From: an uncultured Collinsella sp.
GTDB taxonomy: Bacteria > Actinomycetota > Coriobacteriia > Coriobacteriales > Coriobacteriaceae
Direction of reading: 5' to 3'
DNA: 34,395 bases
Assembly: GCA_902465465.1 (NCBI GenBank)
Contig: CABQNF010000001.1
Coordinates: 1-34,395, forward strand
Made by a program: the position numbers and the translations under genes. The notes under the pieces are model-generated. The model searched no databases. It was not told where the DNA came from and saw nothing but the letters and a program-made list of their open reading frames with translations. This document shows positions 2,324-19,051 of this stretch, piece after piece; the first letter of the stretch is position 1; the number at the start of each line of letters is the position of its first letter.

Positions 2324-3469
2324 ATGAATAAAGCCGATTTGACGCGCTGGTCCTGGGTCGAGATCGACCGTGGGGCGCTCCGTCGTAACACGAGGGCCTA
2401 CAAGAACTTGCTGAATCCACGTCAGCGCCTGTGCTGCGTGGTCAAGGCCGATGCTTATGGCCATGGAGCTGTTGAGTGCGCCAAGATCATGTATTCGGCC
2501 GGTGCCGACATGTTTGCCGTGGCGACGGTTAACGAGGGCGTTGAGCTCCGACAGGGCGGGATTACGAAACCCATCCTCATCCTAAGCGAGCCGCCTATCG
2601 AGGCCATTCCGACGTTGCTCGAGTTTGATATCATGCCCTCGGTCTATACGTCTGACTTTGCTCTTGCGTATGGCGAATGTGCCGTCGCGGCGGGCAAAGT
2701 GGGCAAGTATCATCTCGCCATCGAGACGGGCATGAATCGTATCGGCGTTCACTACACGCAGGTGCTCGACTTTGTCCGCGGTATAAATTTCCATCGCGGT
2801 ATTCAGTGCGACGGCGTATTTACGCACTTCGCCACGGCCGATGAACCTTCGGGCTGGGACTACAAACTGCAGTGTCAGCGCTTTACCGAGGCCGTTCAGG
2901 CCATTAAGGATGCGGGCTTTGAGTGCGGTATCGTGCACTGCGCCAACACGCCGTCCTCGATGCTCGACCCTTCGATGCATTTTGATATGATTCGCGCCGG
3001 CGTTGGCTTGTATGGAATGCAGCCGTGCGAGCTGAGTGGCCGCGTGATGCAGCTTGATCCCGTTATGAGCGTCCATGCGCGTGTGACGCGCGTGGCACAC
3101 CCTGCGATGGGTGAGGGCGTGGGCTACGGTTTTACCTACCGCGTACCGCGTACGCGCGTTCAGATCTGCACGCTGCCGATCGGTTATGCCGATGGCCTAT
3201 CGCGTACGCTTTCCAATCGTATGGATGTGCTGTATCGCGGCGAGCGCGTGCATCAGGTTGGCAATATCTGCATGGACCAGTTTATGGTCGCCATTCAGTC
3301 CAACCCGGCACACGAGATTCCCGAGGCCGAGTATGGTGACGAGATGATTATTGTCGGCCGCGATGGCGATGCCGAGATCACTATGGACGAGATGGCCCGA
3401 CTGCGCGGAACGATTAACTACGAGGTCGCCTGCGGCTTTGGCATGCGTCTCGACAAGGTCTACGTGTAG
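2324..3469 (+). CDS. alr: Alanine racemase
   Basis: PLP-lysine motif VVKADAYGHG, ETGMNRIG, FTHFATAD, PIGYADG, GNICMDQ, GTINYE. Confidence 0.97.
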   Translation: MNKADLTRWSWVEIDRGALRRNTRAYKNLLNPRQRLCCVVKADAYGHGAVECAKIMYSAGADMFAVATVNEGVELRQGGITKPILILSEPPIEAIPTLLEFDIMPSVYTSDFALAYGECAVAAGKVGKYHLAIETGMNRIGVHYTQVLDFVRGINFHRGIQCDGVFTHFATADEPSGWDYKLQCQRFTEAVQAIKDAGFECGIVHCANTPSSMLDPSMHFDMIRAGVGLYGMQPCELSGRVMQLDPVMSVHARVTRVAHPAMGEGVGYGFTYRVPRTRVQICTLPIGYADGLSRTLSNRMDVLYRGERVHQVGNICMDQFMVAIQSNPAHEIPEAEYGDEMIIVGRDGDAEITMDEMARLRGTINYEVACGFGMRLDKVYV

Positions 3470-3477
3470 GAGCCGCT

Positions 3478-4098
3478 ATGGGCGTCATGCACATCCCCGG
3501 CCATACCCATCAGGCACCACGTGAGGTCGCACTCGAGGAAATTGAGGCCGTTCTGGGCGATTGTCACCTCTGCCAGCTCTACCAGTCGCGTCACAATATC
3601 GTGTTTGGCGTGGGAAACCCCCGCGCTCGTGTGATGTTTATTGGCGAGGCGCCGGGCCGCAATGAGGATTTGCAGGGCGAGCCCTTTGTGGGGGCGGCAG
3701 GCGAGGACCTCAACGGCATTTTGTCGCTGGCGGGGCTCAAACGCGAAGACGTCTACATTGCCAACGTGCTTAAGTGCCGCCCGCCGGGAAACCGCAATCC
3801 ACGTCCCGAGGAAGTGCTGGCTTGCTCGCCGTTTTTGCGTGAGCAGATTCGAAGCATCTGGCCCGATATTATCGTGACGCTCGGCAACCCCGCGACGCAC
3901 TTTGTGCTTAAGACCGAGATTGGCATTACTAAGCTGCGCGGCAGGTTCCACCAGATGGGGCATTTTGTAGTAATGCCCACGTTCCATCCGGCAGCAGCGC
4001 TACGCAATCCGGCGTGGCAGGAACTGCTGGAGGAAGACTTTAAGATGCTGGGCGACTATCTGGAGCGACATCCCGCACCAGAGGACGCCTCGGAATAA
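3478..4098 (+). CDS. Uracil-DNA glycosylase, family 4 (4Fe-4S)
   Basis: CHLCQL, FIGEAPG, PFVG, NVLKCRPPGNR, TFHPAA motifs. Confidence 0.93.
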   Translation: MGVMHIPGHTHQAPREVALEEIEAVLGDCHLCQLYQSRHNIVFGVGNPRARVMFIGEAPGRNEDLQGEPFVGAAGEDLNGILSLAGLKREDVYIANVLKCRPPGNRNPRPEEVLACSPFLREQIRSIWPDIIVTLGNPATHFVLKTEIGITKLRGRFHQMGHFVVMPTFHPAAALRNPAWQELLEEDFKMLGDYLERHPAPEDASE

Positions 4099-12111: not shown

Positions 12112-12675
12112 TTAAGGCTCTTTTTTGCTTTGCACGCCCTTGGCCCACTCGGCACTGGCTCTCATGGCGTTCTCGAGGGCCTCGCGCAGTTTTTGGTCTT
12201 CGATGGGCGCCACCTGGCGCTCAATCTCGGTGCGCTCGGCCTCACTTAGGTCGGCGTGCGGGGCCGACGGGCACTCGGTCGTCGCCGGGCGCAGGCGCTC
12301 CTTAGCGGCGGGCGGCGTGTGACCGGGTGCGGTGGTTTTGAACACCAGGCCGTCCACATGAGCACCGGCGCGCTCCATGCGCGCGCGGATGATCTCACGC
12401 AACAGCGTCATTTCCTGCGTCCACGAGGGCGAATCGAGATATACCAGCAGCTCATTGGACTCGGGCAGGTAGCGCAGACCCGTCACATGCCGCCCCTCGC
12501 GCGTGCCCGAGCACACCGCGTTCCACGCGCGATAGACCGCGCGCGACTCCTCGGCAGCCTCCATCTGTGCACGGCGCTCAGGTGTCGCGGCCGCCAGGAT
12601 GCGCTGGCGCTCTGCGTTCAAAAACCCACTGAAGGCGACCGTTTCGCTCTCGCGCTCGTAATTAGCACGTCTCAC
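12112..12675 (-). CDS. dciA: DciA (DUF721) family helicase-operator protein
   Basis: Canonical position between recF and gyrB; W..V.G....H.......L.V..DSPSW.QEM..L...I pattern. Confidence 0.75.
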   Translation of the reverse strand: MRRANYERESETVAFSGFLNAERQRILAAATPERRAQMEAAEESRAVYRAWNAVCSGTREGRHVTGLRYLPESNELLVYLDSPSWTQEMTLLREIIRARMERAGAHVDGLVFKTTAPGHTPPAAKERLRPATTECPSAPHADLSEAERTEIERQVAPIEDQKLREALENAMRASAEWAKGVQSKKEP

Positions 12676-13768
12676 CCATGCTCACCACCCTGGCTCGATC
12701 AAGCAGATCATCGGTAAAGTACCCCAGGTTGGTCGTGGTTATGACCGTCTGGATATCATCGCCGATCAGCCGCAGGAAAGCACCGCGGCGTTCGCCGTCG
12801 AGTTCGCTCATCACGTCGTCCAAAAGCAGCAATGGGGCGGTGCCCAGGACATCGCGAGCCACGGCCACCTCCGCCACCTTCCAGGCCAGAACCAACGTTC
12901 GCTGCTGACCTTGGCTGGCAAATGAACGGGCGGAGCGACCCGCCACGGTAAACTCAATCTCATCGCGATGCGGTCCCACCAACGTCACGCCGCGGCGAAT
13001 TTCCTCGTCGGCGTGCTCATCAAGGGCAGCCAGCATGCGCTCGTACGCCCAGCCCTTCAGCTCTTCGCGATCATCGACCTGGGGCAAATCCCCCAGCGTG
13101 GACGTATAGGTCACGTTGGCAGCCTCACCGGATGCCACTTGCCCGTAGGCAGTGTGCACATGGCCCGCCAGCCGGTCGAGCAGAGCCAACCGGTGCACAA
13201 GCAGAGCCGAGCCCGCGCGGGCAATCGAATCGTTCCACGCGCCGAGCATCTCGCGGCAGCACCAGGTCTCCTTGAGCAAGGCGTTACGCTGGGTCACGCA
13301 GCGCCCATAGGTGCTCGCAAGATCGGCATAGCGTGCGCTCAGTTGCATGCCAAAGTCATCGAGGGCGGCGCGGCGCACACTGGCGCCTCGCTTAACCATG
13401 TCCAGATGGTCGGGGCAAAACAGCACGCTCGGCAGAACCCCGCGCACACCGGCGGCAGAACATCTCTTGCCGTTGCGGCTAAACGAGCGCTTACCGTCCT
13501 CCGCGCTCAACCCCATATCAAGCACGCGGCCGTCGCCCTCGAGCCTCAGCTCGATCTTGCACGAGCCCACGCCGTCATGGACGAGCTCGGCTGCGGTCGG
13601 ATGCCTAAACGAGGCGCCGCTCGTCAGCAGCTGCAGCGCCTCTATGAGATTGGTCTTTCCCGCCGCGTTGGGTCCCGCAAGTATCGTCACGCCCTCGTCC
13701 AGGGTAAGACGATAGCTATCGAAGCTGCGGTAGTGCGCGACGGAAAGATCGCGGGCGAACATGGTCAT
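12662..13768 (-). CDS. recF: DNA replication/repair protein RecF
   Basis: YRSF, GPNAAGKTNLIEA, GPHRDE, SQGQQR, LLLDDVMSELD. Confidence 0.97.
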   Translation of the reverse strand: MTMFARDLSVAHYRSFDSYRLTLDEGVTILAGPNAAGKTNLIEALQLLTSGASFRHPTAAELVHDGVGSCKIELRLEGDGRVLDMGLSAEDGKRSFSRNGKRCSAAGVRGVLPSVLFCPDHLDMVKRGASVRRAALDDFGMQLSARYADLASTYGRCVTQRNALLKETWCCREMLGAWNDSIARAGSALLVHRLALLDRLAGHVHTAYGQVASGEAANVTYTSTLGDLPQVDDREELKGWAYERMLAALDEHADEEIRRGVTLVGPHRDEIEFTVAGRSARSFASQGQQRTLVLAWKVAEVAVARDVLGTAPLLLLDDVMSELDGERRGAFLRLIGDDIQTVITTTNLGYFTDDLLDRARVVSMGETC

Positions 13769-13777
13769 GGCGCAACG

Positions 13778-14881
13778 CTAGATACGGACCGGCATGACCA
13801 GGTACAGGTAGTTGATCTTGTCGTAGGACTTGAAGATGCCCGCCTGCGAGTAGCTCTTGAGCTCCAGCGTGATCTCCTTCTCCTTGGACAGGGCATTGAG
13901 ACAGCCGAAGATGTAGTGGTAGTTGAAGGCGATGGTACCCGACTCGCCCTCGGCCTCGACATCGATCGTCTCCTGCGCAAGGTCCTGGTCATTGGAAATG
14001 GAGGACAGGCCCATCTGCCCGTTCTCGACATCGATCTCGAACTTGACGGCGGGGTTGGCGCTCGCGATAACGGCCACGCGCTTGAGGGCGGCGTTAAAGG
14101 CGGCGACGTCGATCTTGACGCTCGTCACGCACGAATCGGGGATGAGCTGCTTGTAGTTGGGGTACACGCCCTCGATGCGGCGCGACACGTAGGTGGTATT
14201 GCCGGCCTCAAAGACGACCTGGGTGTCGGTAGCCCCGATCATGATGGTCGCCTGGCTGGCCATGATGTTCAGCGCGTCGTTAAAGGCGTCAGCCGGAACG
14301 TTGAGCTCAAAGGAGCCTTCGAGGGTCGATGTCTCGACCTGCGTATCGCACACGGCCAAACGGAAGGAATCGGTCGCCACCAGGCGCACGGTGTTGTTCT
14401 CGACCTTCATGTGCACGCCAGCCAGGATGGGGCGGGCCTTGTCGGTCGAGGTGACGCGCCACACGCGGCCGACCATTTCGGACAAGATATCGGTCGGCAG
14501 TTCCACGGCGCTCTCGATGGCATAGGCCGGAAACTCGGGGAAGTCATTGGCATCGAGCGTGTTCAGGCGGAAAGAGCTCTTCTCGCAACTGATCAGCACC
14601 TGGCGCTCGGACAGCTCAAAGGTGACCGGGGCATCGGGGAGGGTCTTGGTGATATTGGAGAGCATCTTACAAGGGATAACCATCTCGCCCTCTTCTTCGA
14701 CATGCGCCGCGATGCGATGACGGATCGAGATGGTGTAGTTAGAGGTCTGGAATTCCAAGATGCCGTCTTGCGCCTTGACGAGCACGCCCGACAGGATGGG
14801 AAGGGTGGATGCCGAAGCGACGCCCTTCATAACGACGCCGATGGCTTGTGTAAGCGAGCTCTGGCTGACGGTGAACTTCAT
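13778..14881 (-). CDS. dnaN: DNA polymerase III beta sliding clamp
   Basis: TLPILSGVL, DFPEFP, RPILAG, VATDSFRLA, IEGVYPNY, C-terminal LVMPVR; directly downstream of dnaA. Confidence 0.98.
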   Translation of the reverse strand: MKFTVSQSSLTQAIGVVMKGVASASTLPILSGVLVKAQDGILEFQTSNYTISIRHRIAAHVEEEGEMVIPCKMLSNITKTLPDAPVTFELSERQVLISCEKSSFRLNTLDANDFPEFPAYAIESAVELPTDILSEMVGRVWRVTSTDKARPILAGVHMKVENNTVRLVATDSFRLAVCDTQVETSTLEGSFELNVPADAFNDALNIMASQATIMIGATDTQVVFEAGNTTYVSRRIEGVYPNYKQLIPDSCVTSVKIDVAAFNAALKRVAVIASANPAVKFEIDVENGQMGLSSISNDQDLAQETIDVEAEGESGTIAFNYHYIFGCLNALSKEKEITLELKSYSQAGIFKSYDKINYLYLVMPVRI

Positions 14882-15119
14882 CTTTTAATACCTTTCTATA
14901 GATATAAATATCTTAATAATAGTAATAGTACTGACGAAACTGTTGATTACTCACAAAGACGCAGGTCAGACCCAGAAAGAGAATCGACAGCAACCTGTGT
15001 GCAACGGGGGTGGTTTTCCACGTTCAAAACCTGCGCAAAACTTTTCATCACCGCGGGTTGGGTTTTAAACACCTTATGCCCGTGGTTTCGACAAGTTTTC
15101 AACAGGTGTCTCCATTTCC
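14882..15119. other. oriC: oriC unwinding region (dnaA-dnaN intergenic): AT-rich DUE, DnaA-trios, degenerate DnaA boxes
   Basis: AT-rich 14882-14931; trio run TAA TAA TAG TAA TAG TAC (14914-14931) next to box-like TGACGAAAC (14932-14940) and TGTTGATTA (14941-14949); further boxes TTTTCCACG 15014, TTTTAAACA 15063, GTTTCGACA 15085, TTTTCAACA 15096. Confidence 0.85.
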
Positions 15120-16844
15120 CTACGAGCGCAGTGTAATTTTATCGCGCAACGATTTGAGATCTTCGGTGACGGTGCGGTCTTCCTGGATCATCTTCTGGAC
15201 CTTTTTGTAGCTCGTGCTGACGGTCGAGTGGTTGCGGTTGCCAAATTCGGCGCCCACCGCCGTGGTCGTCATCTCGCACATCTCGATGGCCAGGTAGATA
15301 GCGATATGGCGTGCTTTGGCGATATTGGCGTTGCGACGCGGGCCGATGAGCTCCTCGTGCGTCACGCCGTACTGCTCTTCGATGACGGACTGAACCGTCT
15401 GAACGTTGATTTTTTTGGCCGATGTGTCGAAGTACTGGCTGGCGATGGCGTCGATATCGTCAAAGGTGAGCTCCCCGCCCTCGCGCTCGCGGTCGCCCGC
15501 CTCGCCAGCGCAGCGCTCGCAAAAGCTCTCGAGTTCGCGGATGTTGGTGCCCGACACCTCTGCCATGTGCTTAAAGTGCTCATCGGTCAGGTGCCCGCCG
15601 TCGCCCCCATATGCCGCCAGCAGCGAGTCGTCGCCTGCCTCGGGAGCGGCGACGATGGTGCTCTCGTAATAGCGCTGCAAGATCTTGTATTTCATCTCGT
15701 AGCTGGGCTCTGCGACCAGGCAGAGCATGCCGGCGTTGAAGCGGCTGGTCAGACGCTCGTCCATGCTCAGGTCCTTGGGGGCGCGGTCTGCCGCGATGAC
15801 GACCTTCTTGTTGTTGCGGATGAACTCGTCCATGAGCTGGAAAAAGTAGTCCACGCTCGCGCGCTTGCCGATGATGTTTTGGATGTCATCGATGATGAGC
15901 ACGTCCACGCCGTGGTACGCCTGCATGATGGGGGCGTTGCTCTTCTTTTGACGGTCGAACTCGGTCATCAGGTCGTCCAGATATGCCTGGGAGTTGGCAT
16001 ACTTGACCTTGATCTCGGGCGACTTCTCGGCGAGCTCGTTTTTGATGGCAAGCAGCAGGTGCGTCTTGCCAAGGCCCGATTTGCCGTAGATGAAAAGTGA
16101 TGTGCATGTGCCGCGCTCGTCCGCGAGGGCGGCAAACTTGAGTGCCGAGCGATAGGCATGGCTGTTCTCGGGGCCGTAGACAAAGTTCTCAAAGGTGAAT
16201 TTTGAGTTCGCGGCGAGCGGGGCTCCATCCGTATTCTGCTCGGCCGGCACGGTCGGTGCTGGCATGGGTGAAGCGGGGGTCGCAGCTTGCGTGGATTTAG
16301 TCGGCGCTCCGCCCTTCATCTGGTTCATCATGCGGCGAAAATCGTCGGCTGAGAGCGTGTTCTTGATTGCAATGCCCGAATCCGCGCCCGCCGCTGCGTC
16401 GTGAGCGATGGGCATGTGCGTGACGGGTGCGTTCGTTGACGTCGCCGCCGCGGTCGGCAACGGTGCCATGGTTTCACGGGAAACATCGCTGTGCTGGTGT
16501 TCGACCGTCGACGCGTCGCCTGCGGAGGCCGGCACCGCCGGGGAAGCAGCGGGAGCCGTGGCGGGCGCCGTGGCGGCAGCGGATTCCGTCGCGGCGCCTT
16601 GTGGTGCCACGATGTCGAGCGCAATCGGTGCAAAGGCGATTTCTTCCAGATAGGCCTCAATAGTCGGCTGATGCTTTTTGAGCTGCGCGATGGCAAAGCG
16701 CGAGGGGGCCTCGATCGTGAGCGTATCTTCGGTCAGGCTTATGGCGCGCGATTGCCCCAGCATGTTGATGAGGCGTGCATCTTGGCCGTCGCGCTGGCAA
16801 AAGGCGATGGCATCCCCCAGGATGATGCTTGCTTCCTCGTCCAC
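15120..16844 (-). CDS. dnaA: Chromosomal replication initiator DnaA with long domain II
   Basis: FTFENFV.G..N, Walker A GKSGLGKT, Walker B LIIDDIQ, ERLTSRF, NIRELE, domain IV FGNRNHSTV. Confidence 0.97.
   Translation of the reverse strand: MDEEASIILGDAIAFCQRDGQDARLINMLGQSRAISLTEDTLTIEAPSRFAIAQLKKHQPTIEAYLEEIAFAPIALDIVAPQGAATESAAATAPATAPAASPAVPASAGDASTVEHQHSDVSRETMAPLPTAAATSTNAPVTHMPIAHDAAAGADSGIAIKNTLSADDFRRMMNQMKGGAPTKSTQAATPASPMPAPTVPAEQNTDGAPLAANSKFTFENFVYGPENSHAYRSALKFAALADERGTCTSLFIYGKSGLGKTHLLLAIKNELAEKSPEIKVKYANSQAYLDDLMTEFDRQKKSNAPIMQAYHGVDVLIIDDIQNIIGKRASVDYFFQLMDEFIRNNKKVVIAADRAPKDLSMDERLTSRFNAGMLCLVAEPSYEMKYKILQRYYESTIVAAPEAGDDSLLAAYGGDGGHLTDEHFKHMAEVSGTNIRELESFCERCAGEAGDREREGGELTFDDIDAIASQYFDTSAKKINVQTVQSVIEEQYGVTHEELIGPRRNANIAKARHIAIYLAIEMCEMTTTAVGAEFGNRNHSTVSTSYKKVQKMIQEDRTVTEDLKSLRDKITLRS
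16470..16485. promoter_or_regulatory. parS: Degenerate parS site inside dnaA
   Basis: GGTTTCACGGGAAACA, 2 mismatches to TGTTTCACGTGAAACA. Confidence 0.6.
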
Positions 16845-16859
16845 TGTCTCTCCCGTTCT

Positions 16860-18212
16860 TTAGCTCTGAGCTCGCACGCGAGCGGCGCCGAGTTCGGTCA
16901 GATGGTATTTCTGGCCATGCTTGATGACCAAGCCGGCCTGCGCCAAGTCATTGAGCGTGCGTGACCAAGTGGGGGCCGAGTTTCCAAACGCCCTCGCCAG
17001 ATCGGTTGCACCGCACGCTTGATTTTGCGCCAGATAGCCCAGCGCGGCGTTGCCGCGATCGCTTACGAACACGTCCGGTTGTGGCTGCACATACTGATTT
17101 GCTGCATTAGGATACATCATTTGAGCTGCTGGTTGTTGAGAACTCTGCACCGGCGGCATTTGCTGTTGAAAACTTTGAGGCCACTGTTGGTAAGGCTGCG
17201 GAGGCATCTGCTGGGCCCAGGGGTTGTACTGCTGCTGCGGCATCTGCTGGTACGGCTGCTGATATCCCTGCTGGTACTGCTGCGGGAACTGCTGGCCATA
17301 CCCCAGTGGCGGCATCTGCTGATATGGATTTCCCTGTTGGTACGGCTGATAGCCCATTTGCTGGCCACCCAGTGCCCCCGTCGCCTGCTGCATTGCTGCT
17401 GCATCCTGATCCGCCAGCGGCATGGCCTCTGGCATGTTTGGCGGCATCGACATCGATGTCGCCTGGAGCTCTTGTGTAGGAAGCATTCCGGGCTGCTGTA
17501 TCTGCCCCACGGGGGGCTGCATCTGCTGCGTTGCCATGGGCTGCTGCGCAAAAGCTCCCGGCAGGGGATATGTGGGCTGCTCCGTCTCGGGCCGCACGGC
17601 AGCACCGCGTCCGCCGGCGCGCTCGATTTCCTGCACGCGTTTAGGGTCCAGGCTTACCGTAACCACGGTGCCGTTGCCCATGTTGTCCTCGATGGATACG
17701 GCACCGCCGGCGTTTTCCAAATACTCCTGCACCATGGGAAACCCTGCTCCGGTTCCACGGATATAGCGCTTCATCTTGCTGTTTGCGCTGGTAACGCCAA
17801 AGTCGAAAGCGCGTTCCTTGTCGTCGATGCCGGGTCCTTGATCAGCAAAGCGGATGGTGTCTCCGCCGTCCAGAATCGAGATGATGGGCTCGGCAAAGTG
17901 CGCGTGGATAAAGTTTTCGATAATCTCGCGGATGACCATGAGCGAGATATGGCCACCTTGTTCTTTCATGCACTGGTAGACGGTGTTGGTCGTCTCTTCC
18001 AAATACGTGCGGACATCTTGCGGATCAATGACGATCACACGCGGTGTCGACAGCATGTCGTCATAGACGGCGATGCGCGCGGCGTACATGGCTTTTGGCG
18101 CCTGCGTGGTCGTCTGCTCGCCTTCCGCACGCTCTTCGCGCACGCCGGTGATGTGCTCGTTGTCGGGTGCCGGGTCTCCGGAATCGACCATGGTGTAAAA
18201 GTCGTCAGACAT
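16860..18212 (-). CDS. Uncharacterised GHKL (HATPase_c) ATPase with Gln/Pro-rich linker and C-terminal winged HTH
   Basis: N-box REIIENFIHA, G1 FADQGPGI, F-box AFDFGVTS, G2 GTGAGF, GTVVTVSL; C-terminal GATDLARAFGNSAPTWSRTLNDLAQAGLV..YHLTELG; ends 15 nt before dnaA. Confidence 0.85.
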   Translation of the reverse strand: MSDDFYTMVDSGDPAPDNEHITGVREERAEGEQTTTQAPKAMYAARIAVYDDMLSTPRVIVIDPQDVRTYLEETTNTVYQCMKEQGGHISLMVIREIIENFIHAHFAEPIISILDGGDTIRFADQGPGIDDKERAFDFGVTSANSKMKRYIRGTGAGFPMVQEYLENAGGAVSIEDNMGNGTVVTVSLDPKRVQEIERAGGRGAAVRPETEQPTYPLPGAFAQQPMATQQMQPPVGQIQQPGMLPTQELQATSMSMPPNMPEAMPLADQDAAAMQQATGALGGQQMGYQPYQQGNPYQQMPPLGYGQQFPQQYQQGYQQPYQQMPQQQYNPWAQQMPPQPYQQWPQSFQQQMPPVQSSQQPAAQMMYPNAANQYVQPQPDVFVSDRGNAALGYLAQNQACGATDLARAFGNSAPTWSRTLNDLAQAGLVIKHGQKYHLTELGAARVRAQS

Positions 18213-18245
18213 GCCGCTCGCAATCTTTCAAAAGGTTTCGGACAA

Positions 18246-18274
18246 ATAGTAGCTCACCGTGCAATGTTTCTCAT
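18246..18274 (-). promoter_or_regulatory. Possible promoter of the ATPase-dnaA operon
   Basis: Minus strand ATGAGA-N17-TACTAT, adjoining the DnaA-box cluster. Confidence 0.35.
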
Positions 18275-18380
18275 CTTTCGACAACTTTTCAAAACCTGTT
18301 GAAAACTTTGGAAAACGGACGAAAAGTTCTCAACATTGCCAACATGACCTGTCGAAAACTCGATGAAATATCGTGAAAAG
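18275..18380. promoter_or_regulatory. Upstream DnaA-box cluster (second origin module or autoregulatory boxes)
   Basis: CTTTCGACA 18275, TTTTCAAAA 18286, TGTTGAAAA 18297, TTTGGAAAA 18307, GGACGAAAA 18317, TTCTCAACA 18327, TTGCCAACA 18336, TGTCGAAAA 18350; spacing mostly 9-11 bp. Confidence 0.75.
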
Positions 18381-18455
18381 TTGCCATGTACCGCTAAATC
18401 GAGCTTGGCTTATGGGGGAACCGTGTGAACTGCGCAACCTTTTACCTTTGATTTC

Positions 18456-18485
18456 TTGACATTTGAACATTGATTTCCCTACAAT
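18456..18485 (+). promoter_or_regulatory. Sigma-A promoter of rpmH
   Basis: TTGACA (18456-18461)-N18-TACAAT (18480-18485). Confidence 0.75.
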
Positions 18486-18557
18486 CTTCAAGCTCACGTG
18501 TCTATATCTGCGTCCGCGCTCCCGCGGACACTCGAAATGCAGCAGGAGGAACTTAAG

Positions 18558-18692
18558 ATGAAGCGTACGTATCAGCCTAATAAGCGTAAGCGTGCCAAGA
18601 CCCATGGCTTCCGTGCCCGTATGGCCACCAAGGGTGGTCGTGCCGTGCTCGCCCGTCGCCGCGCCAAGGGCCGCAAGCGTCTCACTGTCTAG
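18558..18692 (+). CDS. rpmH: 50S ribosomal protein L34
   Basis: [53 protein letters not shown]. Confidence 0.99.
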
Positions 18693-18712
18693 CAGCGATA
18701 CACACATCTCGC

Positions 18713-19051
18713 ATGAAGACTATTAAGTCTCGGCAAGATTTCGAGCATGTGTTCAGTCAGGGGCGTCGTTTCAATCACCCTCTGATTCGAATGACCATAT
18801 GTGAATCGGTTGGCGAAGGCGACTCCGGAAGGGTCGCCTTCGTTGGTGCTAAACGGCTCGGTTGTGCAGTTGTGCGCAACCGTTCTAAGCGTGTGATGCG
18901 CGAGGCCGCCCGCAGCTGCGGATTTCCCGTTGCGGGTTATGACATCATCTTGTTCGCAACTCCCAAGACGAGGGTTTCCTCGCCGCAGGAGATGGACAAG
19001 GCATTGCGTTCGCTTGTGAAACGCGCCGGCGTTGCCGGGGAGGAGCGATGA
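18713..19051 (+). CDS. rnpA: Ribonuclease P protein component
   Basis: RNR motif AVVRNRSKRVMRE; synteny with rpmH. Confidence 0.93.
   Translation: MKTIKSRQDFEHVFSQGRRFNHPLIRMTICESVGEGDSGRVAFVGAKRLGCAVVRNRSKRVMREAARSCGFPVAGYDIILFATPKTRVSSPQEMDKALRSLVKRAGVAGEER

What the first reader, a model, noticed from the sequence alone, without database searches (positions are those of the whole stretch)
16860..18212. Orphan GHKL-ATPase/winged-helix gene placed first in the dnaA operon: candidate new regulator of replication initiation
Seen: a 450-aa ORF sits between rpmH and dnaA, co-oriented with dnaA and ending 15 nt before it. It has intact Bergerat-fold N/G1/F/G2 boxes and a C-terminal wHTH, but no recognisable DHp phospho-His helix, sensor, TM or receiver domain. 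Established: rpmH and dnaA are normally directly divergent in Actinomycetota and Bacillota, with only DnaA boxes between them. Inference: the gene is co-transcribed with dnaA, separates the two DnaA-box clusters, and may be an ATP-dependent oriC-binding factor or a SpoIIAB/RsbW-like kinase acting on DnaA. I cannot assign it to a characterised family.
Basis: partly seen in the sequence, partly recalled or inferred. Interest (0 to 1): 0.8.

Follow-up and report, generated by a model that had tools for sequence, protein, structure and literature searches.

The report
Conserved ATPase-DNA-binding gene heading dnaA operon
A previously uncharacterised gene for an ATP-binding, DNA-binding protein sits directly in front of the replication initiator gene dnaA, is transcribed with it, and keeps that position across several deep branches of the Actinomycetota, which makes it a strong untested candidate for a new regulator of chromosome replication.

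Summary
Window 16860-18212 (minus strand) encodes a 450-aa soluble protein. It has a kinase-type GHKL ATP-binding domain (residues 40-202), a disordered Gln/Pro-rich linker (203-379) and a MarR-like winged helix (380-450). Its stop codon lies 15 nt before the dnaA start, and a Shine-Dalgarno sequence fills that gap. It is not an orphan. Homologues were found in 288 of 299 high-quality genomes of the class and in 91 of 246 of the phylum, including Rubrobacter and Thermoleophilia by source names. In all 34 distant loci examined the gene lies between divergent rpmH and dnaA, on the dnaA strand. DnaA-box-like repeats flank the gene-dnaA pair on both sides. Stranded RNA-seq shows continuous sense coverage from about 18250 through the junction into dnaA. 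No curated family, paper or solved relative assigns a function. My best reading (0.45) is an ATP-switched DNA-binding accessory factor, made together with DnaA, that acts at oriC or the dnaA promoter. The rivals are a SpoIIAB-like protein kinase and a transcription factor unrelated to replication. At least five genomes with an intact rpmH-dnaA locus lack the gene, so it is dispensable in some lineages. The function is inferred, not shown.

The parts
16860..18212 (-). GHKL-wHTH gene, 450 codons plus the TAA stop; first cistron of the operon
   Evidence: homologues; sense RNA
18159..18212 (-). N-terminal acidic peptide MSDDFYTMVDSGDPAPDN (residues 1-18). It is conserved as DDFYPFV(D/E)xG in related families and resembles DFLQRVLEE at the N-terminus of several distant homologues. 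It is disordered in the model.
   Evidence: alignment; ORF translations; pLDDT of about 34
17607..18095 (-). Kinase-type GHKL (Bergerat) ATP-binding domain, residues 40-202, with N, G1, G2 and G3 boxes and a lid
   Evidence: Pfam HATPase_c; invariant columns; model; fold matches
17076..17606 (-). Disordered linker, residues 203-379 (28% Gln, 18% Pro), with a 12/24-nt imperfect tandem repeat at 17226-17294. Distant homologues have about 20-40 residues here.
   Evidence: alignments
16863..17075 (-). C-terminal winged helix-turn-helix, residues 380-450, basic (pI 9.1), MarR-like core
   Evidence: wHTH families below cut-off; MarR-type chains, Z 12-13, rmsd 1.2-2.0 over 70-73 residues
16845..16859 (-). 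15-nt gap between the gene's stop and the dnaA start, with the Shine-Dalgarno-like GGGAGAG at 16848-16854
15120..16844 (-). dnaA (574 aa, GTG start)
   Evidence: Pfam Bac_DnaA E 1e-41 and Bac_DnaA_C E 7.9e-21
18213..18557 (.). rpmH/gene intergenic region. It holds DnaA-box-like repeats at 18275-18358, a putative -10 TACTAT for the operon at 18246-18251 (my reading of the sequence, not a tool result), and the rpmH promoter TTGACA-18-TACAAT at 18456-18485 on the plus strand.
   Evidence: the RNA depth step
14882..15119 (.). dnaA-dnaN intergenic region with DnaA-box-like repeats at 15014-15104 and an AT-rich stretch at about 14895-14950. This is the likely unwinding side of oriC (inference).
13778..14881 (-). 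dnaN, downstream on the same strand with continuous sense RNA coverage
18558..18692 (+). rpmH (44 aa), divergent from the operon

Best explanation
The gene encodes a soluble, single-copy, two-domain protein: a kinase-type GHKL ATP-binding domain tethered to a MarR-like winged helix.

Shown:
- It is the promoter-proximal cistron of a DnaA-box-flanked operon, gene-dnaA(-dnaN).
- It is transcribed together with dnaA.
- It has kept this position by vertical descent through Coriobacteriia, Rubrobacter, Thermoleophilia and further unnamed families.

Inferred:
- The protein is made in step with DnaA.
- It binds DNA in the origin or dnaA-promoter region through the winged helix.
- It uses ATP binding or hydrolysis in the GHKL domain, which probably also supplies dimerisation because the winged helix lacks MarR's dimer helices. 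This would work as a switch that modulates DnaA assembly at oriC or dnaA transcription.
- It would therefore be an accessory regulator of replication initiation.
For: Synteny:
- All 14 distant loci from other genera of the order and all 20 loci from other families of the class or phylum have the gene between divergent rpmH and dnaA, on the dnaA strand. dnaA is seen directly downstream in 13 of 14 and 19 of 20; the other two loci stop at a record end.
- The distance from stop codon to dnaA start is -8 to +18 nt in 7 of 12 near loci and -4 to +18 nt in 15 of 19 far loci. The starts were chosen by a rule.

Spread and copy number:
- Found in 288 of 299 high-quality genomes and 99 of 105 genera of the class.
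- In the phylum the larger families are nearly all-or-none: 19/19, 17/17, 8/9 and 5/7 against 0/18, 0/13, 0/13 and 0/11.
- Most genomes carry one match.

Vertical descent: the GHKL-core tree recovers the same starred clades as the DnaA tree, namely the order, Rubrobacter, Thermoleophilia and the f37+f52, f1 and f6 groups.

Expression (run X24, stranded):
- Sense depth rises from 15 at 18262-18398 to 50, then 94-121.
- It is 195-207 across the junction bins and 100-200 in dnaA.
- RNA-library contigs bridge the junction in X9, X10 and X1.
- A Shine-Dalgarno sequence lies in the 15-nt gap.
- No terminator-like site was found on the minus strand in 14700-18800.

DnaA boxes:
- Clusters lie on both sides in the window.
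- In 33 of 35 loci the rpmH-to-gene interval holds at least twice the shuffled expectation of DnaA boxes.

ATP site: E-x3-N, DxGPG, GxGxG and G..T are invariant or nearly so in 14 and 25 homologues.

DNA-binding part: the winged helix matches MarR bound to operator DNA (5h3r_A, Z 13.0, rmsd 1.2 over 72 residues) and has pI 9.1.
Against: - No experiment or computation here shows DNA binding, ATP turnover or contact with DnaA.
- The gene is dispensable in some lineages. Five genomes lack it although dnaA is present. In four of them rpmH and dnaA are directly divergent (G028; G234, G128, G047). In the fifth, G069, no rpmH or homologue lies in the roughly 2 kb upstream of dnaA.
- About 60% of sampled genomes of the phylum lack it.
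- The recognition-helix sequence differs between the Collinsella group (APTWSRTLNDL) and most other lineages (STAYRDL), so a single conserved DNA target is not evident.
- A five-sequence footprint alignment of the upstream region showed only the rpmH promoter and DnaA-box-like repeats as conserved blocks. No separate operator stood out.
- Sense RNA depth is lower in the first two-thirds of the gene (69-121) than in its last 400 nt and in dnaA (127-207). This may reflect poor mapping of a different strain onto the variable linker, or it may mean an extra internal promoter for dnaA.
Confidence: 0.45

Rival explanations
1. The protein is a protein kinase of the SpoIIAB/RsbW or PDK type: a GHKL Ser/Thr kinase without a DHp domain. 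It would phosphorylate DnaA or another initiation or cell-cycle protein, with the winged helix only tethering it to DNA near its substrate.
For: - The fold matches anti-sigma factor SpoIIAB over nearly its whole length (1l0o_A: Z 10.6, 129 aligned; Z 11.3, 128 of 141 aligned).
- The E-x3-N arrangement of the N box is conserved. From memory, that arrangement is shared by SpoIIAB-type and PDK-type kinases and by GHL ATPases, not by classical histidine kinases.
- Pfam HATPase_c_2 is hit by 5 of 25 members, and TIGR01925 (anti-sigma F) weakly by 9 of 25.
- There is no transducer domain, as in kinases.
- JGI's automatic names include 'anti-sigma regulatory factor (Ser/Thr protein kinase)'.
- The tight coupling to dnaA fits an enzyme-substrate pair.
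Against: - The fold scores for SpoIIAB, histidine-kinase CA domains (ThkA Z 10.6-11.3) and DIP2311 (Z 12.5-13.1) are tied within about 2 Z units, so the fold does not pick kinase over ATPase.
- TIGR01925 scores 24 bits against a cut-off of 135.
- No STAS partner or sigma factor gene lies beside the gene in the window.
- As far as I recall, DnaA phosphorylation is not an established control mechanism.
Confidence: 0.2
2. The protein is an ATP-responsive transcription factor whose targets have nothing to do with replication. It sits in the dnaA operon only because that gives growth-coupled, DnaA-controlled expression.
For: - The MarR/ArsR-like winged helix is the commonest bacterial transcription-factor module.
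- The closest structural match of the GHKL part is DIP2311 (3lmm), whose GHKL region gave that match and which, from memory, carries a wHTH after it. The whole-model Foldseek match covers 186 columns. Its function is unknown.
- The gene has been lost several times without loss of dnaA.
- The recognition helix varies between lineages.
Against: Hitch-hiking does not easily explain a position kept in 34 of 34 loci across classes that separated very early, with near-abutting or overlapping stop and start codons. Gene order this stable in bacteria usually marks proteins that work together; this is general knowledge, not tested here.
Confidence: 0.2
3. The protein is an anti-sigma factor that sequesters a sigma factor, with ATP controlling partner switching as in SpoIIAB/RsbW.
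For: The fold resembles SpoIIAB, and some sources give automatic 'anti-sigma regulatory factor' names.
Against: - No sigma factor or anti-anti-sigma (STAS) gene lies next to it in the window.
- A DNA-binding domain is not part of known anti-sigma kinases (from memory).
- The curated SpoIIAB model is far below its cut-off.
Confidence: 0.05

Closest known systems
SpoIIAB / RsbW anti-sigma factor serine kinases (PDB 1L0O)
   Same: A stand-alone GHKL domain of about 140-160 residues with no DHp and no transducer domain, an extra N-terminal strand and helix before the N box, and E-x3-N. Fold match Z 10.6-11.3 over 128-129 of 141 residues.
   Different: This protein carries a C-terminal winged helix and an N-terminal peptide. 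There is no STAS or sigma partner gene nearby. The curated model TIGR01925 scores 24 bits against 135. By sequence the domain is closer to Pfam HATPase_c than to HATPase_c_2 (25 of 25 members against 5 of 25).
Catalytic (CA) domains of sensor histidine kinases (HK853, EnvZ, ThkA, KinB)
   Same: These are the best sequence relatives: Pfam HATPase_c E 8e-11, PDB sequence hits at E about 1e-3, Foldseek E 3.5e-6 and weaker. The G1, G2 and G3 boxes and a lid of similar length are shared.
   Different: There is no HisKA/DHp domain with a phospho-accepting His, no sensor or membrane part and no adjacent response regulator. Every NCBIfam kinase model is far below its cut-off.
DIP2311 of Corynebacterium diphtheriae (PDB 3LMM), a structural-genomics protein of unknown function
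   Same: It is the best structural match of the GHKL part (Z 13.1, rmsd 3.2 over 157 residues; Z 12.5, rmsd 2.6 over 147). The whole-model Foldseek match covers 186 columns. From memory, it also carries a wHTH after the GHKL domain.
   Different: DIP2311 is 477-492 residues with a large N-terminal domain that is absent here; the match starts at chain residue 220-230. Sequence identity is 13-15%. No Pfam HATPase_c_4 hit was listed for this family. DIP2311 has no known link to dnaA.
MarR-family winged-helix regulators
   Same: The C-terminal 70 residues superpose on the MarR wHTH core, including MarR bound to operator DNA (5h3r_A, Z 12.0-13.0, rmsd 1.2).
   Different: Only the wHTH core is present. 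The N- and C-terminal helices that form the MarR dimer are missing. Pfam MarR and MarR_2 are below their cut-offs.
Known accessory regulators of DnaA or oriC (YabA, SirA, Soj, Hda, DiaA/HobA; the oriC-binding regulators MtrA, AdpA, Spo0A, HP1021). Recalled, not searched by sequence.
   Same: The proposed role is the same: a non-essential, lineage-specific factor that tunes initiation by binding origin DNA or DnaA.
   Different: None of these is a GHKL protein. As far as I know, none is a conserved first cistron of the dnaA operon. No Pfam family of these proteins was hit.

Membership tests
GHKL (Bergerat-fold) ATP-binding superfamily / Pfam HATPase_c | N box with Mg-binding Asn, G1 (DxGxG), G2 (GxGxG) and G3 motifs | tested here: met
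   E96-x3-N100, D124/G126/G128, G153/G155/G157 and G181/T185 are invariant or nearly so. HATPase_c scores 42.8 bits against a cut-off of 26.4 and is hit by 25 of 25 members.
GHKL (Bergerat-fold) ATP-binding superfamily / Pfam HATPase_c | alpha/beta sandwich fold with an ATP lid | tested here: met
   Models have pLDDT of about 90. They match histidine-kinase CA domains, SpoIIAB and DIP2311 at Z 10.5-13.1.
Classical sensor histidine kinase | DHp/HisKA dimerisation domain carrying the phospho-accepting His | tested here: not met
   No HisKA family appears in Pfam scans at E up to 1 or up to 0.1 for 25 members. The models show no helical hairpin before the GHKL domain.
Classical sensor histidine kinase | sensor or membrane part and a cognate response regulator gene | tested here: not met
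   The largest hydropathy value is 1.02. The neighbours are rpmH and dnaA.
SpoIIAB/RsbW anti-sigma serine kinases | match to the curated family model (TIGR01925) or Pfam HATPase_c_2 | tested here: not met
   TIGR01925 scores 24.4 bits against a cut-off of 135 for the first member. It gives weak hits in 9 of 25 members, and HATPase_c_2 in 5 of 25.
SpoIIAB/RsbW anti-sigma serine kinases | partner genes (STAS anti-anti-sigma, sigma factor) in the same locus | tested here: not met
   None lies among the neighbours in the window, and the 34 distant loci have only rpmH and dnaA as direct neighbours. The rest of each genome was not searched for such partners.
SpoIIAB/RsbW anti-sigma serine kinases | overall fold of the stand-alone kinase domain | tested here: inconclusive
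   1l0o_A gives Z 10.6-11.3 over 128-129 residues. This is tied with histidine-kinase CA domains and lies below DIP2311.
GHL ATPases (MutL, GyrB, Hsp90, MORC, Topo VI-B) | transducer (ribosomal S5-like) domain after the GHKL domain, supplying a Lys to the gamma-phosphate | tested here: not met
   A disordered linker and then a winged helix follow the GHKL domain. HATPase_c_3 is hit weakly by 12 of 25 members and MutL models stay far below their cut-offs.
MarR family | wHTH core fold | tested here: met
   Z 12-13 with rmsd 1.2-2.0 over 69-73 residues.
MarR family | dimerisation helices at both ends, and a family model above cut-off | tested here: not met
   Only about 70 residues are present. 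MarR scores 16.3 bits against 24.6 and MarR_2 scores 21.7 against 27.
DIP2311-like proteins (PDB 3LMM) | large N-terminal domain before the GHKL domain, and a Pfam HATPase_c_4 match | tested here: not met
   The match begins at chain residue 220-230 of 492. Here only about 40 disordered residues precede the domain. HATPase_c_4 is not listed.
Any curated NCBIfam protein family | score at or above the curated cut-off | tested here: not met
   For the window protein the best hit is 23 bits against 560. For the compact homologue the best is 31.7 bits against 60.2.

The most novel reading that the evidence does not exclude
This is an ancestral actinobacterial initiation cofactor. It would be a GHKL ATP switch or kinase, produced in fixed proportion to DnaA from the same message. 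It would dock on origin DNA through its winged helix and either gate or remodel DnaA oligomers or phosphorylate DnaA. That would be a class of initiator control not seen in the E. coli, Bacillus or Caulobacter models. It would be retained in Coriobacteriia, Rubrobacteria and Thermoleophilia and lost in the lineage leading to mycobacteria and streptomycetes.
Probability: 0.3. Interest if true: 0.9.

Novelty: new variant of a known kind. Interest (0 to 1): 0.72.

Why it matters
The rpmH-dnaA-dnaN neighbourhood is one of the most conserved and most studied loci in bacteria. Lineage-specific regulators of DnaA are how different bacteria couple replication to growth.

This gene is an extra, uncharacterised member of the dnaA operon. 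It is near-universal in a whole class that includes abundant human gut bacteria (Collinsella, from source names). It is also present in deep-branching Actinomycetota. That gives a concrete, testable handle on how initiation is controlled in these organisms.

It also corrects the assumption that rpmH and dnaA are directly divergent throughout the phylum. If the GHKL domain acts on DnaA or origin DNA, it would add a new biochemical type to the known initiation regulators.

Tried and rejected
1. Complex prediction with the DnaA and the GHKL-wHTH protein of a compact homologue pair (locus L136, alignments A3 and A2) returned 'no answer' (score 0.00, mark 0.32). This says nothing either way. I had trimmed off the conserved N-terminal peptide, so that part was not tested.
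4. The search for related loci on genome contigs returned only near-identical Collinsella records: the best 80 of 537 confirmed. It gave no breadth.
5. I tried to reach another phylum through a record titled 'Oscillospiraceae bacterium' (L030). Its genome is placed in the same phylum and the search re-drew the same phylum: 80 of 201 genomes at E<=1e-12, of which 6 are weak generic kinase hits. Spread outside Actinomycetota is therefore untested. The only hint is that all ESM-Atlas look-alike clusters are labelled 'commonest Actinomycetota'.
6. The strict DnaA-box pattern TTWTCCACA with up to 1 mismatch was not enriched over the whole window: 9 matches against 7.0 expected. The local variant TTTTCNACA was enriched.
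7. The PDB sequence search gave only generic kinase CA domains at E of about 1e-3.
8. Five literature searches and passages of PMC4255298 turned up nothing on this gene.
9. I considered and rejected a spurious ORF (it is conserved, expressed and has a domain above cut-off), a recent horizontal insertion (the tree is congruent with DnaA, and its GC matches the neighbours) and a classical two-component kinase (no DHp).
Full report
**What is there.** The window carries the classical origin neighbourhood. On the plus strand are rpmH (18558-18692), rnpA, yidD, yidC, jag, rsmG and parA. On the minus strand are dnaA (15120-16844), dnaN (13778-14881) and recF (12662-13768). Between rpmH and dnaA, on the dnaA strand, lies a 450-codon ORF at 16860-18212. 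Its TAA stop is followed by agaacGGGAGAGaca and then the dnaA GTG. The gap is therefore 15 nt and is filled by a Shine-Dalgarno-like sequence.

**The protein.**
- Pfam HATPase_c matches residues 93-190 above the curated cut-off: E 8e-11, 42.8 bits against 26.4.
- Residues 385-445 match a dozen winged-helix families, each below its cut-off.
- No NCBIfam model comes near its cut-off.
- The AlphaFold model built on a 14-sequence alignment has four parts. Residues 1-35 are disordered. Residues 40-202 form a confident alpha/beta GHKL domain. Residues 203-379 are disordered (28% Gln, 18% Pro). Residues 380-450 form a confident winged helix.
- No 19-residue stretch is hydrophobic enough for a membrane helix; the maximum is 1.02.
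- The catalytic motifs are invariant or nearly invariant in alignments of 14 and 25 homologues: E96-x3-N100 with H103/A104, D124-Q-G-P-G128, G153-x-G155-x-G157, and G181 to T185.

**Fold comparison.**
- Foldseek finds histidine-kinase catalytic domains (E 3.5e-6 and weaker).
- The full structural scan puts DIP2311 (3lmm_A) first for the ATPase part. It scores Z 13.1 with rmsd 3.2 over 157 residues, and Z 12.5 with rmsd 2.6 over 147 residues with the compact homologue's model (pLDDT 90.5).
- SpoIIAB (1l0o_A, Z 10.6-11.3), ThkA (Z 10.6-11.3) and NifL (Z 10.5-10.8) follow.
- These scores are too close together to choose between a kinase and an ATPase.
- They do agree that this is the short, transducer-less, kinase-type GHKL domain.
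- The C-terminal domain superposes on MarR-type winged helices, including MarR on operator DNA (5h3r_A, Z 13.0, rmsd 1.2 over 72 residues). It lacks the helices through which MarR proteins dimerise.

**Not an orphan: spread.**
- A word-indexed search with residues 40-200 found 2745 proteins at E<=0.001 among 3053 candidates. The best 120 were 98-99% identical over that part, and the one named was 'ATP-binding protein [Collinsella sp.]'.
- Among 41 genomes (G000 and 40 relatives), strong matches (E<=1e-42) occurred in 22 of 24 genomes of the same genus and 11 of 16 genomes of other genera of the order.
- With a profile at E<=1e-15, 288 of 299 high-quality genomes and 99 of 105 genera of the class matched.
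- In a phylum-wide draw at E<=1e-12, 91 of 246 high-quality genomes matched. The larger families were nearly all-or-none: 19/19, 17/17, 8/9, 5/7, 4/4, 4/4 and 3/3 against 0/18, 0/13, 0/13, 0/11, 0/11 and 0/8.
- Source names of identical proteins place two of the positive groups in Rubrobacter xylanophilus and in Miltoncostaea marina / 'Thermoleophilia bacterium'.
- All names are generic: 'ATP-binding protein', 'hypothetical protein', or JGI's automatic 'anti-sigma regulatory factor (Ser/Thr protein kinase)/DNA-binding transcriptional ArsR family regulator'.
- A profile search of 1.84 billion cluster representatives gave 396 clusters at E<=1e-30 and 886 at E<=1e-10. A tail of 60,242 at E<=1e-3 is the generic HATPase_c background.
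- ESM-Atlas look-alike clusters are all labelled 'commonest Actinomycetota'. Other phyla could not be tested directly.

**Synteny.** I fetched 14 loci from other species and genera of the order and 20 from other families of the class or phylum, and located the window's proteins in them by tblastn.
- In all 34 loci the homologue lies next to a divergent rpmH.
- dnaA follows directly on the same strand in 13 of 14 and 19 of 20 loci. The other two loci end at the end of a record.
- All homologues keep the order GHKL, linker, winged helix, and most are 235-300 residues long. The long Gln/Pro linker is therefore a Collinsella-group expansion.
- The distance from the stop codon to the dnaA start is -8 to +18 nt in 7 of 12 near loci. 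The others are 43, 50, 74 and 205 nt, plus one locus with an inserted ORF.
- In 15 of 19 far loci the distance is -4 to +18 nt; in the other four it is 49-84 nt. In one search I chose each start as the first start codon at or after 12 nt before the stop. The conserved DnaA N-terminus begins a few residues later, which bounds the error.
- A tree of the GHKL core recovers the order (100/97), Rubrobacter (100/99), the Thermoleophilia pair (96/89), f37+f52 (98/97), f1 and f6. Except for the order, which does not form one clade in the midpoint-rooted DnaA tree, these clades are also starred in the DnaA tree of the same genomes. The DnaA tree is the quick version because the careful search did not finish. 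L014, L017, L019, L022, L124 and L126 were left out of the trees.
- This pattern is vertical inheritance together with dnaA.

**Losses.**
- Five relatives had no strong match. In four of them DnaA was not found either, so the locus is probably unassembled. In G028 (98% complete), dnaA and rnpA are about 750 nt apart, which leaves about 600 nt between dnaA and the short rpmH that must lie there, and no ORF of 70 aa or more lies in that space.
- Eleven genomes of the class had no match. In six no dnaA was found, and in one dnaA sits at a contig edge. In three (G234, G128, G047) rpmH and dnaA are directly divergent. In one (G069) no rpmH or homologue lies in the roughly 2 kb upstream of dnaA.
- The gene is therefore not universally required.

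**Origin context.**
- The local DnaA-box variant TTTTCNACA with up to 1 mismatch occurs 27 times in the window against 16.3 +/- 3.9 expected; 1 of 100 shuffles reached 27.
- Five copies lie in 15014-15104 (dnaA-dnaN spacer), next to an AT-rich stretch at about 14895-14950. Six copies lie in 18275-18358, upstream of the gene.
- In 33 of 35 loci, the interval from rpmH to the conserved core of the gene holds at least twice the shuffled expectation of TTATCCACA with up to 2 mismatches. The shuffles were mononucleotide, and the intervals include any non-conserved 5' coding part.
- A five-sequence alignment of the upstream region keeps only the rpmH promoter (TTGACA-18-TACAAT) and the box-like repeats as conserved blocks.
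- A TACTAT at 18246-18251 is my candidate -10 for the operon. This is my reading of the sequence only.

**Expression.** One raw-read, stranded RNA-seq run of an isolate with the same species label (X24) was laid on 14700-18800 at 90% likeness or better.
- rpmH fixes the strand convention: depth is 3237-3923 with the first mate on the minus strand, against 52-79 with it on the plus strand.
- In the sense channel for the minus-strand genes, depth is 15 in 18262-18398, 50 in 18125-18261, 94-121 in 17577-18124 and 69-83 in 17166-17576.
- It then rises to 127-207 in 16755-17165, with 207.5 in the bin that holds the junction, and is 100-203 in dnaA and 187-211 in the last two bins, which cover the start of dnaN.
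- Contigs from three other RNA libraries bridge the junction: X9 at 16663-17065, X10 at 16519-16915, and X1 across the whole stretch. A contig does not prove a single transcript, and DNA carry-over is possible.
- The dip in the linker may be a mapping loss of another strain on a variable, repetitive region. Alternatively, the later rise may mark an additional internal promoter.
- No terminator-like site was found on the minus strand.

**Interpretation.** Shown: a real, expressed, conserved gene; its domain make-up; its intact ATP site; its fixed place as first cistron before dnaA behind a DnaA-box cluster; and its vertical inheritance and occasional loss. Inferred: that the winged helix binds DNA near the origin, that the GHKL domain dimerises and switches with ATP, and that the target is DnaA assembly or dnaA transcription.
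- I put 0.45 on this accessory-factor reading.
- I put 0.2 on a SpoIIAB/PDK-like protein kinase.
- I put 0.2 on a transcription factor unrelated to replication.
- I put 0.05 on an anti-sigma role.

**Literature.** Five full-text searches found nothing on a gene between rpmH and dnaA in these lineages: dnaA, rpmH, Coriobacteriia; upstream of dnaA, ATPase, winged helix, Actinobacteria; Coriobacteriia, conserved signature proteins, Rubrobacter; Eggerthella, dnaA, origin of replication, ATP-binding protein; and (rpmH-dnaA phrases). I saw only the listings and abstract starts. For PMC4255298 I saw ten passages, and none mentions it. Subscription-only papers are not covered, so 'not in print' is limited to this library.

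Noticed in passing
window 17076-17606; proteins; open frames: The Gln/Pro-rich linker varies in length between Collinsella strains and species. Proteins that are 98-99% identical over residues 40-200 and carry both domains are 371 to 474 residues long, and open frames of 399-528 aa appear within the genus and family. A 12/24-nt imperfect repeat lies at 17226-17294.
   Followed up: partly
L014 6791-7174 (genome G027): An extra 127-aa ORF lies between the gene and dnaA. It starts with the same roughly 20 residues as that genome's DnaA (MMRMNEESREEAA...) and ends in a second copy of the winged helix. It looks like a tandem duplication across the gene/dnaA junction.
   Followed up: no
L019 6675-7431 (genome G032): Here the homologue is read as two overlapping ORFs: 182 aa for the GHKL part and 85 aa for the winged helix. 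This is either a frameshift or a natural split.
   Followed up: no
window 18159-18212; N-termini of ORFs: A short acidic or aromatic N-terminal peptide is conserved ahead of a variable spacer: DDFYPFV(D/E)xG in the order, and DFLQRVLEE, NYFQRFVEN or NKFLERVLSE in several distant families. It could be a docking motif and was not included in the complex prediction.
   Followed up: partly
window 18506-18507 and 18456-18485: Many RNA molecules of the rpmH strand end at 18506/18507 (236 and 258 molecules). This is about 20 nt downstream of a near-consensus promoter, TTGACA-18-TACAAT, and is probably the rpmH transcript 5' end.
   Followed up: no
L124 5548-6021 (genome G440): The DnaA reading frame chosen from the start after the gene closes after 158 aa, although tblastn matches continue to residue 570. 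This is probably a frameshift in that assembly.
   Followed up: no
L030 (record titled 'Oscillospiraceae bacterium'): A contig 98% identical to the Collinsella locus sits in a genome titled as Oscillospiraceae. The genome tool places that genome in the same phylum as the window, so the title or the binning looks wrong.
   Followed up: partly
window 12968-15136 (+) and 17019-18302 (+): Very long ORFs (722 and 427 aa) run antisense to recF-dnaN and to the GHKL gene. They look like shadow ORFs of GC-rich coding DNA, not genes.
   Followed up: no
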